Below, one piece after another: positions 209-4,449 of a stretch of 5,563 nt of DNA (position 1 is the stretch's first letter; each line of letters starts with the position of its first letter). The position numbers and the translations under genes were made by a program. A model generated the notes under the pieces. That model did no database searches. It was not told the origin of the DNA and saw nothing but the letters and a program-made list of their open reading frames with translations. Origin of the DNA: a virus (lineage: Duplodnaviria; Heunggongvirae; Uroviricota; Caudoviricetes); IMG/VR virus record IMGVR_UViG_2541047438_000019; one strand, written 5' to 3'.

Positions 209-300
209 GTCGGCTCCTTGTGGTTAGCGTTGCCTGCTTTTAACCACGTCAGGCGAGGTGGTATCCTCTGAGGGGTCTGTTACTCGAGAGGAAATTGGTT

Positions 301-501
301 ATGAATACAATCAAGTTTTCTTGCCCAGAATGTGGTGGCGAAGTCTTTGACACATCCTTTAAGCCGCAGGGCTCTGACAGTTTCGCGGGAGCCATCTGCA
401 AAAATTGTGGTCACCTTGTAACTGAAGATGAGTCCTCGCAGTTCGATGACGAAATCGTTGACAATATCTTCGGTGCACTCACCAGAGACTTTCTGAAGTA
501 A
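301..501 (+). CDS. small zinc-ribbon protein, 66 aa (CPEC-x21-CKNC, acidic C-terminus), function unknown
   Basis: ATG at 301 with GAGAGGAAA at 286-294 upstream (the track ORF starts at an in-frame TTG at 295). Two CxxC pairs 21 residues apart are unlikely by chance. Codons are mostly common E. coli codons. A perfect hairpin follows downstream. The fully overlapping reverse ORF 280-636 is its codon-for-codon antisense and uses rare Arg codons for 8 of 9 Arg. Confidence 0.5.
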   Translation: MNTIKFSCPECGGEVFDTSFKPQGSDSFAGAICKNCGHLVTEDESSQFDDEIVDNIFGALTRDFLK

Positions 502-931: not shown

Positions 932-1210
932 TTAGGGAAACTGGCGTCTTGCGTGGATCACGTTTACTACTTCAACGCTTGATGTTGTTACGCGGTATAG
1001 AATTATATAGTTAGGGTGGGCTACAATCTCACGCAAGCCAGGTACTCTGTCGCTTGGTGGGTATAAATACGGATGTTCGGATAACGGCAGCACACAACCC
1101 CTTAATCGCTGCCATAAGCGTTCAGCCGCATCTATGTCGAAACGAGCAATATAACTAGTTATATCATCTAGGTCGGTATCTGCGCTTTCAAGCCATAACA
1201 CGGGTAACAT
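932..1210 (-). CDS. parE2: ParE/RelE-family type II toxin (ParE2-like), 92 aa
   Basis: Translation MLPVLWLESADTDLDDITSYIARFDIDAAERLWQRLRGCVLPLSEHPYLYPPSDRVPGLREIVAHPNYIILYRVTTSSVEVVNVIHARRQFP has the ParE pattern (DLDDI..YIA, EHPY, PGLRE..V..Y.I.YRV, V.V..V.HARR). ATG at 1210 lies 1 nt after the stop of the upstream small gene. The longer track ORF (to 1306) would overlap that gene; ParE proteins are about 90-100 aa. Confidence 0.85.
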   Translation of the reverse strand: MLPVLWLESADTDLDDITSYIARFDIDAAERLWQRLRGCVLPLSEHPYLYPPSDRVPGLREIVAHPNYIILYRVTTSSVEVVNVIHARRQFP

Positions 1211-1211
1211 T

Positions 1212-1403
1212 TTACTGCTTGCTCCGTTCCTTGCGCATCTTAGCAAAGCGTTCTGCCATTCTGCGCTCAACTTCGTCATGGGGAATTGCTGGGCGCGGAT
1301 CTGCAAGGCTCGTTGCTACTTTCGCACGCAGCCATTCGTTGTAACTGTTTTCTTGTTCAATGGTTTCAAATTCAGAAACCATTGGTGAAAGGGCTCTATT
1401 CAT
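1212..1403 (-). CDS. paaA2: small antitoxin partnered with ParE (PaaA2-like), 63 aa
   Basis: ATG at 1403 preceded by GGAGGA (complement of 1409-1414). Translation MNRALSPMVSEFETIEQENSYNEWLRAKVATSLADPRPAIPHDEVERRMAERFAKMRKERSKQ matches my recollection of the short PaaA2 antitoxin of E. coli O157:H7. It sits immediately upstream of the ParE gene in the same operon. The track N-terminal extension (to 1457) would overlap the regulator gene. Confidence 0.8.
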   Translation of the reverse strand: MNRALSPMVSEFETIEQENSYNEWLRAKVATSLADPRPAIPHDEVERRMAERFAKMRKERSKQ

Positions 1404-1423
1404 GTTTCCTCCGGTTTTATAAC

Positions 1424-1795
1424 TCAGGCGCGGCGGCATTTTTGCGCCGCAATCCATCTCGCTATGAGATCTTCCATTGATTCTTTTTTCTGCTTTAACT
1501 CGCTGATTATCTGGCGTTGCTCATCCTCAGGGAAGGCTGAAAAAATCTGCAATAATTCCAGTTGATTAGACGTTAACCCTGCATGTGGTGGAGAACCCCC
1601 CGGTTGTTCTGCGTATTCCGCATCCAGATACCCTTCCGGCATCCCGTATGTTTGCTCTATTCTTCTGGCAGCCTTTTCTCCAAACGAGGCTCTCCCACTC
1701 ATTAGTTGAGATAGGTAGCTCTTCTCTTTGGGTGGCAGAGTTTTATCTTTAAACCACTCCTTGAGACGTAAACGGCGAATTTCTTTTTTTTGCAT
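1424..1795 (-). CDS. paaR2: CI-like phage repressor / regulator of the toxin-antitoxin operon (PaaR2-like), 123 aa, N-terminal helix-turn-helix, no LexA-type peptidase domain
   Basis: Helix-turn-helix-like N-terminus (KSYLSQLMSGRASFGEKAARRIEQTYGMPEGYLD) resembles phage CI repressor DNA-binding domains. Sits at the cI position, divergent from a cro-like gene across an operator-bearing spacer. Start taken at ATG 1795 (MQKKEIRRL); the track start at GTG 1858 would add a hydrophobic 21-aa extension lying over the operator region. Confidence 0.8.
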   Translation of the reverse strand: MQKKEIRRLRLKEWFKDKTLPPKEKSYLSQLMSGRASFGEKAARRIEQTYGMPEGYLDAEYAEQPGGSPPHAGLTSNQLELLQIFSAFPEDEQRQIISELKQKKESMEDLIARWIAAQKCRRA

Positions 1796-1892: not shown

Positions 1893-2195
1893 ATGACATT
1901 AAAAGAGTTTATTAAATCATTAAGGGTTGGTGATGCTAAGAAATTCGCGGCCAGACTTGGTGTATCGCCATCTTACTTATCGCAAATGGCGTCTGGACGA
2001 ACAGCTATATCTCCAACCCGCGCCCTTATGATCGAATCTGCGACGGAAGGCCAAGTAAGTAGGGCGGAGCTACGACCCCATGATTGGGAGCTTATTTGGC
2101 CTGAGTATGCGAGCGGCATTCGTTTGGGGCAAACACATGTAGTTCATGCTGAAGGTGATTGTAGTGCATGCTTATCTGATGGAGTTGATTCATGA
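1893..2195 (+). CDS. ydaS: Cro-like helix-turn-helix regulator, YdaS family, 100 aa
   Basis: ATG at 1893 preceded by GAGGAAGG. Translation contains FAARLGVSPSYLSQMASGRTAISPTRALMIESATEGQVSRAELRP, the YdaS/Cro-type helix-turn-helix pattern. First gene of the rightward operon, divergent from the repressor. Confidence 0.85.
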   Translation: MTLKEFIKSLRVGDAKKFAARLGVSPSYLSQMASGRTAISPTRALMIESATEGQVSRAELRPHDWELIWPEYASGIRLGQTHVVHAEGDCSACLSDGVDS

Positions 2196-2617
2196 AAATC
2201 AAGCATGAACACATCCGCATGGCGATGAATGTCTGGGCGCATCCGGACGGCGAAAAAGTACCGGCTGCGAAAATTACCAAAGCGTATTTCGAGCTGGGAA
2301 TGACGTTCCCGGAACTGTATGACGACAGCCATCCGGAAGCCATGGCTCGCAATACTCAGAAAATTTTCCGCTGGGTGGAGAAAGACACTCCTGATGCGGT
2401 TAAAAAAATTCAGGCGTTGTTACCAGCGATCGAAAAAGCGATGCCGCCTCCGCTGGTGGCCCGAATGCGCAGCCACAGTTCCGCTTATTTTCGGGAGTTG
2501 GTAGAGACGAAGGAACGGCTGGTGAAAGATATTGATGATTTCGTTGCATCAGCGATCGTTCTGTTCGATCAGATGAATCGTGGTGGCCCGGCAGGAAACA
2601 CTCTGGCTGTGCATTAA
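2192..2617 (+). CDS. ydaT: YdaT-family protein (CII-like regulator of lambdoid/Rac-type prophages), 141 aa
   Basis: Starts MKIKHEHI, typical of YdaT-family proteins. ATG 2192-2194 overlaps the ydaS stop (ATGA at 2192-2195); GGAG at 2181-2184. Conserved ydaS-ydaT gene order. Confidence 0.85.
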   Translation: MKIKHEHIRMAMNVWAHPDGEKVPAAKITKAYFELGMTFPELYDDSHPEAMARNTQKIFRWVEKDTPDAVKKIQALLPAIEKAMPPPLVARMRSHSSAYFRELVETKERLVKDIDDFVASAIVLFDQMNRGGPAGNTLAVH

Positions 2618-2630
2618 TTGGGTAATAAAT

Positions 2631-3140
2631 ATGAGTAATGACAAAAAATTGACACTGAGCGTTTACGAAAACAGTCCGCACATCTGGCGTGGCGGTTTAT
2701 CTGATGTGGAGCTGGCAGAGTGGTTGATACATAAAGCTAATGCGCTGCTCTGGCGTTTGTCAGCCAGAGAACAGCGCAAGGAAACCAGAATAAAGCTGGC
2801 TGATGCAGAAGCGTGTGCCGGGCTTATTGAGGATTATACAAATCTTGGTATTTCTTCAGCAGAGAGTGATCCCATTCAGCCTCTGAGCAGGGAGTCAATC
2901 CAGCACGCTGGTTGTATGGCACATCTTGTAACTGCTCGTCAACATGAGGTGGGTATTGGATCACTTCCGGCGGGATATTCGCTGATTCCAGAGCTGGTTG
3001 AAGCAAGAAAATCAGTTCAGAAAAAGAGAGATGACGCACTTCAATTATTGAGAGAGCACTATGGCGCGATACCAGAATGCGAACAGCGTCGATACCCTGA
3101 AGGTTATGAATGGATGCAGTCTCTTTTTGAAGTTCGCTAA
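2631..3140 (+). CDS. hypothetical protein, 169 aa, no recognisable family
   Basis: ATG at 2631 (MSNDKKLTLSVYEN...) 13 nt after the ydaT stop, weak SD. Same strand as the surrounding early operon and protein-like composition (about 6 percent Gly). The track start at GTG 2580 would overlap ydaT by 38 nt. The strand is not fully resolved: antisense ORF 2824-3279 has a perfect SD (see findings). Confidence 0.5.
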   Translation: MSNDKKLTLSVYENSPHIWRGGLSDVELAEWLIHKANALLWRLSAREQRKETRIKLADAEACAGLIEDYTNLGISSAESDPIQPLSRESIQHAGCMAHLVTARQHEVGIGSLPAGYSLIPELVEARKSVQKKRDDALQLLREHYGAIPECEQRRYPEGYEWMQSLFEVR

Positions 3141-3357
3141 TCAATATGTCGAGACGAAGGTATGTTTCGGCGCGCAGCCAGGCTCTGTAATCCGGGAGCA
3201 TTTCGGGGCTGTTACACCAGCGGTTTGTTGCTGCAACATTTAATACATGAGCCTGATAAAGGCTTTTCAAAAAATACATGTCGAACCTCCTCTGGTTCTG
3301 TCGATTGGGAACCACAGATTATATCCGGAGGAAGGTTCGGCACCAGATGAGGTAGCC

Positions 3358-4449
3358 ATGCGTGATTACGCAAAAGTTTCTCCGCGATTCTGGCTGGGAG
3401 AAACGGGGAGAGAACTTAGAAAGGCGGGTGCAGAAGCGCAAGTTGTTGCTTTTTACCTGATGACATCCCCTCACGCAAATATGCTGGGTTTGTATTACCT
3501 GCCAGTTTTATACCTTGCTCATGAAACCGGGCTTGGTCTGGAAGGGGCTTCAAAGGGGCTTAAAAGGGCTGTTGAAGCTGGTTTTTGTAGCTATGACCAT
3601 GATGCAGAGATGGTCTGGGTCCATGAAATGGCAGCCTGGCAGGTTGGGGAAACGTTGAAGCCTGGCGATAACCGTTGTGCAGGTGTCAGGAATGAGTATG
3701 CATCATTACCTGAAAACGCTTTTCTGTCAGTGTTTTACGACAGATATAAAACGGATTTCCATCTGGATGTGAGGCGGAATAATAGCCGAAATTCGGTAAG
3801 GGGCTTCGAAGGGGCTTTTAAGGGGCTTCGAAGCCAAGAACAGGAACAGGAGCAGGAGAAAGAACAGGAACAGGACAAAAACACTATGGTTCATGGCAAA
3901 AAAAACACCACGAACCAGGCAGGGGATGTTCAGACCGTCAATCCTGGTCAGCCAGCAGGCACGACACCGGAAGCCGATTCGGGCGCTGTGCAGCAGGTGA
4001 TGACCGCAGGGTCGGAGCAATCACACCAACTGCAGCAGCCTGAAGCCGATTCCGCCATTCAGCGGGAAGCCGATCGGGTAGTCCCGGAAAGCACCGGGCA
4101 GTCTGTGGGACGAGTGGATTATCCGGATGTGTTCGAACAGGTCTGGCGGGAATACCCGTTGCGTGCTGGGGCAAACCCGAAGAAATCCGCTTTCAGTGCC
4201 TGGAAGGCCAGATTGCGCGAGGGGGTGCCACCAGAGACCATGCTGGATGGTGTGAGGCGTTACGCGAGATACCTGGCGGCGACCGGGAAAGCGGGAACGG
4301 AATTTGTTCAGCGAGCGACGACGTTTTTTGGGCCGGACCGGAATTTTGAAAACCCCTGGTTGCTCCCGGTAAGCGGCACGAACAACCAGCGTTGTGTGAA
4401 TCATATTTCTGAACCGGATACCGAAATTCCGCCGGGATTCAGGGGGTGA
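3358..4449 (+). CDS. phage replication initiation / replisome-organiser protein (O-like role), 363 aa, with low-complexity linker
   Basis: Sits immediately upstream of and coupled to a DnaC-like loader gene. C-terminal segment FEQVWREYPLRAGANPKKSAFSAWKARLREG...FFGPDRNFENPW resembles the conserved motif of phage replisome-organiser proteins as I recall it. Iteron-like DNA repeats lie inside the gene. Start chosen at ATG 3358 (GAGGT 5 nt upstream); an in-frame ATG at 3247 lacks an SD and is the alternative. Confidence 0.7.
   Translation: MRDYAKVSPRFWLGETGRELRKAGAEAQVVAFYLMTSPHANMLGLYYLPVLYLAHETGLGLEGASKGLKRAVEAGFCSYDHDAEMVWVHEMAAWQVGETLKPGDNRCAGVRNEYASLPENAFLSVFYDRYKTDFHLDVRRNNSRNSVRGFEGAFKGLRSQEQEQEQEKEQEQDKNTMVHGKKNTTNQAGDVQTVNPGQPAGTTPEADSGAVQQVMTAGSEQSHQLQQPEADSAIQREADRVVPESTGQSVGRVDYPDVFEQVWREYPLRAGANPKKSAFSAWKARLREGVPPETMLDGVRRYARYLAATGKAGTEFVQRATTFFGPDRNFENPWLLPVSGTNNQRCVNHISEPDTEIPPGFRG
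3542..3570. repeat. iteron-like direct repeats, cluster 1: AAGGGGCTT / AAAGGGGCTT / AAAAGGGCT at 10-11-bp spacing
   Basis: Read directly: GAAGGGGCTTCAAAGGGGCTTAAAAGGGCT. The repeat period is not a multiple of 3, so codon repetition does not explain it. Confidence 0.5.
3798..3830. repeat. iteron-like direct repeats, cluster 2: three tandem 11-bp units AAGGGGCTT(C/T)(G/T); candidate replication-origin core inside the initiator gene
   Basis: AAGGGGCTTCG (3798-3808), AAGGGGCTTTT (3809-3819), AAGGGGCTTCG (3820-3830), one helical turn apart, followed by a hexanucleotide repeat and an A-rich stretch. Confidence 0.55.
3838..3876. repeat. tandem hexanucleotide repeat (GAACAG/GAGCAG) encoding an EQEQEQEKEQEQ linker
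   Basis: GAACAGGAACAGGAGCAGGAGAAAGAACAGGAACAGGAC read directly, in frame with the replication gene. Confidence 0.8.

What the first reader, a model, noticed from the sequence alone, without database searches (positions are those of the whole stretch)
2631..3279. Unknown gene between the CII-like and replication genes, with an antisense ORF that has a perfect SD
Plus ORF 2631-3140 (169 aa) has no family I recognise and is extra relative to the cro-cII-initiator-loader order. On the opposite strand, ORF 2824-3279 (151 aa from its ATG) has AGGAGG exactly 6 nt upstream of the ATG (complement of 3286-3291) and uses only CGC/CGT Arg codons, whereas the plus ORF uses several AGA/AGG. I favour the plus ORF on synteny and composition (the antisense product has 3 Gly in 151 aa), but the sequence alone does not settle it.
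Basis: partly seen in the sequence, partly recalled or inferred. Interest (0 to 1): 0.55.

Follow-up and report, generated by a model that had tools for sequence, protein, structure and literature searches.

The report
Two genes overlapping on opposite strands
The disputed stretch of this E. coli O157:H7 prophage does not hold one gene and one decoy: it holds two real protein-coding genes that run towards each other and share 317 bases, both kept intact by selection across Escherichia, Salmonella and Serratia phages, which makes it an unusually clean natural example of long antisense gene overlap.

Summary
In detail: a plus ORF at 2631-3140 and a minus ORF at 3279-2824, with AGGAGG 6 nt upstream of the minus ATG. 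RefSeq annotates only the minus ORF (ECs1072 family). Comparative evidence says both are genes.

- In its non-overlapped 5' part, each ORF shows strong frame-specific purifying selection (ratio 0.10 and 0.12), while phantom antisense frames give about 1.
- In the 317-nt overlap, both proteins are under purifying selection (0.44 and 0.46, p<0.001) and codon periodicity disappears.
- Across 12 independent lineages, down to about 30% identity, neither frame has an internal stop (30 and 41 expected). One lineage lacks the plus gene, and there stops reappear at the expected rate.
- The frame relation never changes, and the two genes move together between prophage contexts.
- The minus protein folds confidently (pLDDT 90.6) into an all-helical fold with no known relative. 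The plus protein is predicted as long helices with low confidence.

Function is unknown. My working model is head-on, mutually exclusive expression: the minus gene in the lysogen, from its own conserved leader, and the plus gene within the early lytic operon. That leader is a hairpin that sequesters the SD, and it also precedes at least 10 unrelated small prophage genes.

The parts
2631..3140 (+). Plus-strand gene, 169 aa, unnamed family (PHROG 8304). It starts 13 nt after the stop of the YdaT/cII-like gene and points the same way as the cro-ydaT-replication operon.
   Evidence: Full-length homologs reach 31-35% identity. Purifying selection is specific to this frame in codons 5-64. There are no stops in 17 lineages. 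Salmonella-type relatives carry their own SD, caGGAGGatatATG. The AF2 model has pLDDT 64 and consists of long helices.
2824..3279 (-). Minus-strand gene ECs1072 (WP_000273724.1), 151 aa, with a compact all-alpha fold.
   Evidence: It matches NCBIfam NF033230 and is the ORF PGAP annotates. The family extends to about 20-30% identity. Codons 2-46 give ratio 0.12. It is intact in all 15 distinct module sequences. AF2 gives pLDDT 90.6 and pTM 0.87.
2824..3140 (.). 317-nt antisense overlap of the 3' parts of the two genes. Codon position 1 faces position 1, and position 2 faces position 3, so no site is synonymous in both frames.
   Evidence: The frame relation is invariant in 19 loci. Divergence is flat across phases (0.35/0.35/0.37), against 0.30/0.20/0.53 in the minus-only part. 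dNN/dSN is 0.44 and dNN/dNS is 0.46, both p<0.001. Stop avoidance gives p=9e-9 and 4e-13.
2631..2823 (+). Exclusive 5' part of the plus gene (codons 1-64), containing the conserved motif SPHIWRGGLSDxELAxWL..KANA.
   Evidence: Invariant columns are listed. Pooled pairs give dNN/dSN 0.10 (p=8e-13), while the phantom antisense frame gives 1.75, not significant.
3141..3279 (-). Exclusive 5' part of the minus gene (codons 1-46), containing the conserved motif PDYRAWLRAETYLRLD.
   Evidence: Conservation is shown. dNN/dSN is 0.12 (p=8e-11), while the phantom antisense frame gives 1.00.
3286..3291 (-). Shine-Dalgarno AGGAGG of the minus gene, 6 nt before the ATG.
   Evidence: Read directly from the sequence. 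The string GGAGGTTCGAC-ATG is conserved in nearly all family members.
3280..3344 (-). Conserved cassette leader of the minus gene. It comprises GGTGCCGAACCT (3344-3333), an anti-SD arm (3339-3327), a perfect TATAAT in the loop (3323-3318) and an SD arm (3292-3282). It folds into a hairpin that sequesters the SD and the start codon.
   Evidence: The leader is more conserved than the CDS across members at about 30% aa identity. Folding gives -26.3 kcal/mol, z=-2.7 for the minus-sense RNA and -31.8, z=-4.6 for the plus-sense RNA. There is no Rfam match. The same leader precedes at least 10 unrelated cargo genes in 88 IMG/VR contigs.
2192..2617 (+). Context: the YdaT / cII-like gene upstream of the plus gene.
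   Evidence: It matches Pfam PF06254 and PHROG 163.
3358..4449 (+). Context: the replication-initiator/DnaD-like gene. Its true start is at 3358, so pR-type transcripts must cross the whole minus gene and its leader to reach it.
   Evidence: PGAP gives these coordinates. The PHROG 1701 alignment starts at residue 38 of the 3247 ORF.

Best explanation
The interval holds a mobile two-gene cassette of temperate enterobacterial phages. Its two protein-coding genes converge and overlap antisense by 317 nt here (about 260-320 nt in most lineages).

Shown:
- Both reading frames are protein-coding and under purifying selection, both in their exclusive 5' parts and inside the overlap.
- The frame relation is fixed, and the two genes always travel together.
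- The plus gene always points the same way as the early operon it sits in. Here that operon is cro - ydaT - plus gene - replication genes.
- The minus gene (ECs1072) is the lone opposite-strand gene and brings its own conserved leader with a perfect SD.

Inferred:
- The minus gene is transcribed from a promoter inside its leader (TATAAT at 3323-3318) in the repressed prophage, like a moron.
- When the early operon fires, RNA polymerases that must read through to the replication genes run head-on across the minus gene and its promoter, and they produce an RNA fully complementary to its mRNA. Expression of the two proteins would then be mutually exclusive: ECs1072 in the lysogen, the plus protein early in lytic growth.
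- The leader hairpin, in which the anti-SD arm pairs with the SD and start codon, would block translation of any read-in transcript that starts upstream of the arm.

The biochemical functions are unknown. ECs1072 is a compact helical protein of a fold without known relatives, and the plus protein is an elongated helical protein.
For: Dual coding:
- Exclusive segments: pooled independent close pairs give ratio 0.10 for the plus gene (p=8e-13) and 0.12 for the minus gene (p=8e-11). Phantom antisense frames in the same segments give 1.75 and 1.00, not significant. The six-frame control agrees.
- Overlap: dNN 0.046 against dSN 0.105 and dNS 0.100, so the ratio is 0.44 for minus (p=3.5e-4) and 0.46 for plus (p=8e-4). 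Both 'half-synonymous' classes run at half the neutral rate of 0.22 seen in the exclusive parts.
- No internal stops in either frame in 17 carrier lineages. Over 12 independent lineages 29.9 and 40.9 stops are expected, with Fisher combined p=9e-9 and 4e-13.
- Natural control: L005/L006 lack the plus gene. There the plus frame has 3 stops (3.5 expected), and codon periodicity returns in comparisons with it (0.49/0.42/0.68).
- The plus-family ORF is found opposite every ECs1072-family gene down to about 30% identity (L062-L067, L075, L079, L140). It is never found opposite other cargo genes that share the leader.
- AF2 gives pLDDT 90.6 for the minus protein.

Expression model:
- Gene orientation in every context that has gene calls.
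- The conserved leader, its hairpin and the TATAAT.
- No terminator-like site on either strand between the two genes.
- The ECs1072 probe signal changes in uninduced Sakai cultures on a 70-mer array (PMC2241611).
Against: - There is no direct evidence of translation of either product. No Ribo-seq or proteomic data were found for this locus.
- The plus gene is dispensable in some lineages. It is frameshifted in L007-L009 (+2 nt, three independent contigs) and in L053 (-1 nt, though an intact relative, P0042, exists). It lacks its first ~24 profile positions in L065 and is absent in L005/6. Its C-terminal end varies (102-197 aa).
- The plus model has low confidence (pLDDT 64, pTM 0.34).
- The promoter assignment is weak. 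The consensus scan finds no sigma-70 site in 2500-3450. Salmonella leaders have only GATAGC where E. coli has TATAAT. If the transcription start lies upstream of the arm, the hairpin would repress the gene's own translation instead.
- The hairpin arms are almost invariant, so there is next to no covariation to prove an RNA structure.
- Mutual exclusivity is inferred from geometry alone.
Confidence: 0.8

Rival explanations
1. Only the minus ORF (ECs1072) is a gene, as in RefSeq. The plus ORF is a shadow ORF that stays open by chance or by codon bias.
For: PGAP annotates only the minus ORF. The plus model has low confidence. The plus ORF is broken or absent in some lineages. Long antiparallel ORFs are usually not under selection (bioRxiv 10.1101/724807).
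Against: The 193-nt part of the plus ORF that lies outside the minus gene shows ratio 0.10 in the plus frame, and only there. Strong SDs precede the plus ATG in divergent lineages. In the overlap dNN/dNS is 0.46, p=8e-4. Zero stops are seen against 29.9 expected, while stops do appear in the one lineage without the plus 5' part.
Confidence: 0.03
2. Only the plus ORF is a gene. The minus ORF with its perfect SD is a decoy.
For: The plus ORF is co-oriented with the operon, and PHROG 8304 matches it at full length.
Against: The minus-only codons 2-46 give ratio 0.12, p=8e-11. The minus family reaches about 20% identity with conserved motifs. AF2 gives pLDDT 90.6. The minus ORF is intact in all distinct module sequences, including lineages where the plus gene is lost. 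It has a curated NCBIfam model.
Confidence: 0.02
3. Both strands code, but only the first roughly 65-100 residues of the plus protein matter. Its overlapping C-terminal tail is a tolerated read-through with little or no function, kept open mainly because stops there are mildly deleterious.
For: The plus C-terminus ends at different places (102, 143-154, 168-169, 192-197 aa). L007-9 keep an 83-aa frameshifted version. pLDDT is below 50 for residues 105-119 and 149-169. Conservation is strongest in residues 1-100.
Against: dNN/dNS over the whole overlap is 0.46, not 1. Stops are avoided along the whole 257-323 nt in 16 lineages. Residues 120-144 form a conserved predicted helix with the motif GYSLIPEL...QKK.
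Confidence: 0.12
4. The pair is a toxin-immunity (toxin-antitoxin-like) module. The plus protein, made from the repressed early operon, is harmful to the host or to a competitor. ECs1072, made constitutively in the lysogen, neutralises it at the protein level and/or as an antisense RNA.
For: The two genes co-occur strictly as a mobile pair. ECs1072 persists intact where the plus gene is lost (L005/6, L007-9, L065). The converse occurs only once, in a near-identical variant (L122). The convergent 3' overlap resembles type I systems such as txpA/RatA (my own knowledge).
Against: There is no match to any PADLOC or Pfam toxin or antitoxin family. Neither protein looks like a small membrane toxin (GRAVY -0.50 and -0.23).
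Confidence: 0.15

Closest known systems
Antisense overlapping genes (OLGs) reported in E. coli O157:H7 and Pseudomonas (nog1/citC, laoB, ano, asa, pop/ompA, oloz genes, olg1/olg2)
   Same: Both involve two protein-coding frames on opposite strands sharing hundreds of nucleotides. Annotation pipelines keep only one of them (PMC9927249, PMC7103648, PMC8850804).
   Different: Those cases are mostly young, taxonomically restricted ORFs embedded in an older 'mother' gene, and they are supported mainly by Ribo-seq and phenotypes. None of the three oloz genes lies in a phage region. Here both partners have their own exclusive 5' domain. Both are conserved to about 30% identity across genera. Both show a ratio below 1 in the overlap, and the support is evolutionary rather than experimental.
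Lambda oop RNA / cII (leftward antisense transcript between cII and O)
   Same: In the window the minus gene sits where oop sits in lambda: between the cII-like gene and the replication initiator, transcribed leftward and antisense to the rightward early transcript (my own knowledge of lambda; layout).
   Different: oop is a 77-nt non-coding RNA that overlaps the 3' end of cII. Here the leftward unit encodes a conserved 151-aa protein, it overlaps a separate protein-coding gene rather than the cII-like gene, and the cassette also occurs at quite different places in other phages.
Phage morons (autonomous accessory genes with their own promoter inserted in phage operons)
   Same: ECs1072 is the lone opposite-strand gene. 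It carries its own leader and SD, and it moves between phage contexts. The same leader serves many unrelated small cargo genes.
   Different: A classical moron is a single gene flanked by a promoter and a terminator. Here no terminator is seen, and the moron is permanently coupled to a convergent overlapping partner.
IS10/IS50-type 'fold-back inhibition' leaders (SD sequestered only in read-in transcripts)
   Same: An upstream arm complementary to the SD and start codon brackets a promoter-like -10 element. Transcripts that start inside would have a free SD, while transcripts from outside would not (geometry; the IS10 mechanism is from my own knowledge).
   Different: The transcription start has not been mapped here. 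The element is not part of a transposase gene, and it precedes diverse phage accessory genes.

Membership tests
ECs1072 family phage-associated protein (NCBIfam NF033230) - minus ORF | Whole-protein score above the curated cut-off of the family HMM. | tested here: met
   The score is 105.7 bits against a cut-off of 70, E=2.1e-30, covering 4-145 of 151 aa. PGAP names the ORF accordingly.
PHROG 8304 (unknown function) - plus ORF | Full-length match to the PHROG profile. | tested here: met
   The score is 398.8 bits over 1-169 of 169. The score implies that members are near-identical, so membership by itself says little.
Non-trivially overlapping antisense protein-coding gene pair | Both frames under purifying selection inside the shared nucleotides. 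| tested here: met
   dNN/dSN is 0.44 (p=3.5e-4) and dNN/dNS is 0.46 (p=8e-4). Phantom-frame controls give 1.00 and 1.75.
Non-trivially overlapping antisense protein-coding gene pair | Both ORFs kept open beyond what codon usage and the partner's protein sequence predict. | tested here: met
   Zero stops are seen against 29.9 and 40.9 expected over 12 lineages, p=9e-9 and 4e-13. The lineage without the partner has 3 stops (3.5 expected).
Non-trivially overlapping antisense protein-coding gene pair | Both products translated in vivo. | not testable with these tools
   No Ribo-seq or proteomic record for this locus was found. The only expression evidence is a 70-mer array signal for ECs1072.
Toxin-antitoxin or known anti-phage defence system | Similarity of either protein to a known toxin, antitoxin or defence family. 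| tested here: not met
Known structured RNA family (Rfam) for the leader | Covariance-model match. | tested here: not met
   A cmscan of the window at E<=1 finds only a spurious miRNA hit elsewhere.

The most novel reading that the evidence does not exclude
The cassette is an ancient, horizontally mobile bistable expression module. Two proteins are encoded on opposite strands of the same DNA, and the head-on overlap itself is the regulatory device: it guarantees that the lysogen-state protein (ECs1072) and the lytic-state protein are never made together. In addition, the shared SD-sequestering leader defines a previously unrecognised 'plug-in' expression element that enterobacterial prophages use to mount many different accessory genes.
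Probability: 0.3. Interest if true: 0.8.

Novelty: new member of a known kind. Interest (0 to 1): 0.62.

Why it matters
Whether bacteria and their phages really maintain long antisense overlaps between two functional protein genes is disputed. Genome-wide surveys find that most long antiparallel ORFs are not under selection (10.1101/724807), and the experimentally supported cases are young embedded ORFs.

This pair differs in several ways:
- It is deeply conserved.
- It passes selection tests in both frames, with internal negative controls: phantom frames, and a lineage that lost one partner.
- It sits in a genetically tractable E. coli O157:H7 prophage.
- Each gene has an exclusive 5' part, so either can be knocked out without touching the other. 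That is rarely possible for overlapping genes.

It also shows that current RefSeq annotation drops a real gene in about 450 complete E. coli genomes. Finally, it points to a conserved leader element shared by many prophage accessory genes.

Tried and rejected
- Function by homology gave nothing consistent for either protein: Pfam, NCBIfam, PHROGs and PADLOC, and PDB sequence profiles.
- The plus model was too weak (pLDDT 64) to search with.
- The genome-contig scan with the family alignment found no relatives, because it holds one genome per species. The metagenome scan found only near-identical copies.
- The search for related loci with the broad alignment failed for lack of a conserved stretch. 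P0029 and P0031 gave nothing in viral contigs.
- Literature: ECs1072 appears in only one paper's table. Supplements of the Sakai Ribo-seq paper and the EDL933 TSS paper hold no record of the locus. A sequence-string search for the leader returned only unrelated primer matches.
- The consensus promoter scan found no sigma-70 site in 2500-3450, so the leader promoter remains an inference.
- I considered and rejected a LexA box in the leader, because the CTG-N14-CAG spacing is wrong.
- I considered and rejected an intrinsic terminator role for the hairpin, because no T-run follows it on either strand.
- The weak N-peptide Pfam hit of one plus-family member (E=0.019) was judged to be chance.

Full report
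WHERE WE ARE. The window is the immunity/replication region of a lambdoid prophage of E. coli O157:H7. It is 100% identical to NZ_AP018488 and many other O157 genomes, and the 2560-3400 stretch is present in 499 of 5426 complete E. coli genomes. From left to right the layout is:
- a ParE/PaaA2 toxin-antitoxin pair and a repressor on the minus strand;
- YdaS/cro-like (1893-2195);
- YdaT/cII-like (2192-2617);
- the disputed interval;
- a DnaD-like replication protein, whose real start is 3358 rather than 3247;
- a DnaC-like loader.

OBSERVATION. Two small details needed correcting: the minus ORF has 2 Gly, not 3, and one of its 8 Arg codons is AGA.

WHO ANNOTATES WHAT. RefSeq/PGAP calls only the minus ORF (WP_000273724.1). 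It matches NCBIfam NF033230 'ECs1072 family phage-associated protein' at 105.7 bits. The plus ORF matches only PHROG 8304, at near-identity. Neither has a Pfam family.

BOTH TRANSLATIONS HAVE DEEP FAMILIES. Word-indexed and exhaustive profile searches found full-length relatives of the minus protein down to about 20-30% identity. Relatives of the plus protein reach 31-35% identity. They occur in Escherichia, Salmonella and Serratia prophages. DNA of 20 distinct lineages was fetched. The two ORFs always lie opposite each other, with the same frame relation: codon position 1 faces position 1, and position 2 faces position 3. The overlap is 257-323 nt in most lineages, 140 nt in the most divergent one, and 392 nt in the P0042 type.

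The cassette moves between contexts:
- between ydaT and the replication gene in E. coli;
- just after cro in Serratia;
- in the cox...recE early operon of Salmonella prophages;
- next to cI at the head of the leftward operon in others.

In every context that has gene calls, the plus gene points the same way as the early operon around it, and the minus gene is the lone opposite-strand gene.

IS EITHER ORF A SHADOW OF THE OTHER? Four tests say no.

(1) Exclusive segments. The plus gene has 64 codons outside the minus gene, and the minus gene has 46 codons outside the plus gene. In each segment, the lowest pN/pS among all six frames is the proposed frame (0.37 and 0.32 as raw proportions). I used an OLGenie-style count on independent close pairs: five for the minus-only segment and the overlap, four for the plus-only segment. 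The real gene gives dN/dS 0.10 (plus, p=8e-13) and 0.12 (minus, p=8e-11). A phantom antisense frame in the same geometry gives 1.75 and 1.00, neither significant.

(2) The overlap. In this frame relation no site is synonymous in both genes.
- Changes non-synonymous in both genes occur at 0.046 per site.
- Changes synonymous only in minus occur at 0.105 per site.
- Changes synonymous only in plus occur at 0.100 per site.
- This gives a ratio of 0.44 for the minus protein (p=3.5e-4) and 0.46 for the plus protein (p=8e-4).
- Both half-synonymous classes run at half the 0.22 seen at truly synonymous sites next door.
- Codon periodicity of divergence is lost: 0.35/0.35/0.37, against 0.30/0.20/0.53 in the minus-only part.

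(3) Stop avoidance. Permuting synonymous codons of one gene predicts 1-5 stops in the partner's frame per lineage. None is observed in any of 17 carrier lineages, in either direction. Over 12 independent lineages, 29.9 and 40.9 stops are expected and none seen, with Fisher combined p=9e-9 and 4e-13.

(4) A natural control. L005/L006 carry an ECs1072 homolog but no plus gene. There the former plus frame has 3 stops (3.5 expected). In comparisons with that lineage, the minus-frame wobble position is again the most variable (0.49/0.42/0.68) and pS is saturated.

In addition, Salmonella-type plus genes carry their own strong SD, caGGAGGatatATG. In the window, the plus ATG lies 13 nt after the ydaT stop codon, so translational coupling is plausible.

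EXCEPTIONS. These show the plus gene is dispensable in some phages, and that its last 20-40 codons are the least constrained.
- The plus gene is frameshifted by +2 nt in L007-9 (three independent contigs) and by -1 nt in L053, although an intact relative, P0042, exists.
- It is shortened by about 20 codons in L003/4.
- It lacks its first ~24 profile positions in L065.
- It is absent in L005/6.
- The minus gene has a premature stop in one near-identical E. coli-type contig, L122.

THE LEADER. The 65 nt upstream of the minus ATG (3344-3280) are more conserved than the coding sequence, even between members whose proteins share about 30% identity. An upstream arm, CGAACCTCC, is complementary to the SD region GGAGGTTCG. 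The minus-sense RNA folds into a hairpin that buries the SD and start codon (z -2.4 to -4.0). The plus-sense RNA folds even better (-31.8 kcal/mol, z -4.6).

In the E. coli version the loop contains a perfect TATAAT, 17 nt after CTGGTG. Other lineages have weaker -10-like hexamers. The generic scan does not call a promoter, and Rfam has no match.

The same leader occurs in 88 IMG/VR contigs, and in about 20 more with variant arms. It precedes at least 10 unrelated small genes, including a BssS-family protein, a 97-aa family, and a 151-aa family that may be a distant paralog of ECs1072 (hhalign probability 61%). Only ECs1072-family cargo has the antisense partner.

The arms hardly vary, so covariation cannot decide among three readings: an RNA hairpin in the minus mRNA, a hairpin in the rightward transcript, or a DNA-level element. 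Two single variants fit RNA pairing. GCC>GTC adds a pair. CGAACC>CGAACT keeps a G.U pair only in the minus-sense RNA.

HOW IT MOST LIKELY WORKS. It is shown that two genes are under selection on opposite strands. The following is inferred. ECs1072 behaves like a moron, expressed from its own leader in the lysogen. A Sakai 70-mer array detects regulated ECs1072 signal without induction (PMC2241611). The plus gene is part of the repressor-controlled early operon. Rightward transcripts must cross the entire minus gene and its leader to reach the replication genes, and no terminator separates the two units. Induction should therefore silence ECs1072 by polymerase collision, promoter occlusion and duplex formation, while in the lysogen the ECs1072 transcript is antisense to the plus gene. 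That would make the two proteins mutually exclusive.

A toxin/immunity relationship is a possible layer on top of this. ECs1072 survives the loss of its partner, and the reverse is seen only once. This relationship is untested.

COMPARISON WITH WHAT IS KNOWN. The pair belongs to the small, contested class of long antisense overlapping genes. It is atypical within that class. Both partners are old, both have exclusive domains, the pair is mobile, and the evidence comes from selection rather than from Ribo-seq. I found no description of this pair. Positionally, in the window, the minus unit occupies the slot of lambda oop, but it encodes a protein and also occurs elsewhere in other phages.

VERDICT. 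This is a new, well-supported member of a known but rare kind, with an additional unexplained conserved leader element.

Noticed in passing
window 3280-3344 (minus strand); also L002, L062, L063, L065 and L068-L147: This is a conserved ~65-83-nt leader (GGTGCCGAACCT...GGAGGTTCGAC-ATG) with an anti-SD/SD inverted repeat. It is more conserved than the genes it precedes. It is shared by at least 10 unrelated small prophage genes in 88+ IMG/VR contigs, and it is not in Rfam. Whether it acts as an RNA hairpin, an insulated promoter or a recombination linker is unresolved.
   Followed up: partly
window 237-270 (upstream of the ORF at 301-501, plus strand); L067 2436-2465: A second leader type (TTGCCTG.CTTTTAACCACGTCAGGCnnGGTGGTAT, promoter-like with TGgTATCCT) precedes a 66-aa zinc-ribbon ORF in the window. 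It also precedes the ECs1072-family gene of L067, which lacks the first leader. Leaders and cargo genes therefore appear to be shuffled independently.
   Followed up: partly
L005 3463-3960 / L006 719-1174; also L119, L134, L086, L127: A 151-155-aa family (MSLMAVCQKIK...LPELRWSDLPNELF) uses the same leader, and in L005/6 it sits directly downstream of the ECs1072 homolog. hhalign against the ECs1072 family gives probability 61%, E=8e-5 over 69 collinear columns. It may be a distant paralog, and it has no antisense partner.
   Followed up: partly
window 3247-3357: The long ORF of the replication gene begins at 3247, but PGAP and all PHROG alignments start it at ATG 3358, which has GAGG 5 nt upstream. 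The first 37 codons of the ORF are the reverse complement of the minus gene's leader and start, and are probably not translated.
   Followed up: yes
window 3832-3885: There is a low-complexity SQEQEQEQEKEQEQDK linker in the middle of the replication protein. It lies between the part matched by PHROG 25210/12196 (N-terminal) and the part matched by PHROG 18526/3729 (C-terminal, DnaT-like end).
   Followed up: no
window 932-1457 (minus strand): A ParE-family toxin (PF05016) and a PaaA2/RelB-type antitoxin (PF21217) sit directly downstream of the prophage repressor gene on the same strand. This is a second accessory module in the immunity region.
   Followed up: no
L007-L009, about 3490-3502 (locus coordinates): The plus gene carries the same +2-nt frameshift in three contigs from independent samples, yet the downstream part of its old frame is still stop-free (0 stops against 4.05 expected). 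The shift is either very recent or compensated in some way, for example by slippage near an A-run.
   Followed up: partly
L122 (IMGVR_UViG_2671180460_000010): This is an E. coli-type copy in which ECs1072 is cut to 97 aa by a premature stop while the plus ORF stays intact. It is the only case seen of the minus gene being broken.
   Followed up: no
L001 6451-6841 (NZ_AP018488): In the reference genome the prophage early region is interrupted about 1.2 kb downstream of the window by an ISEc8 (IS66-family) insertion that truncates a DUF977 gene.
   Followed up: no
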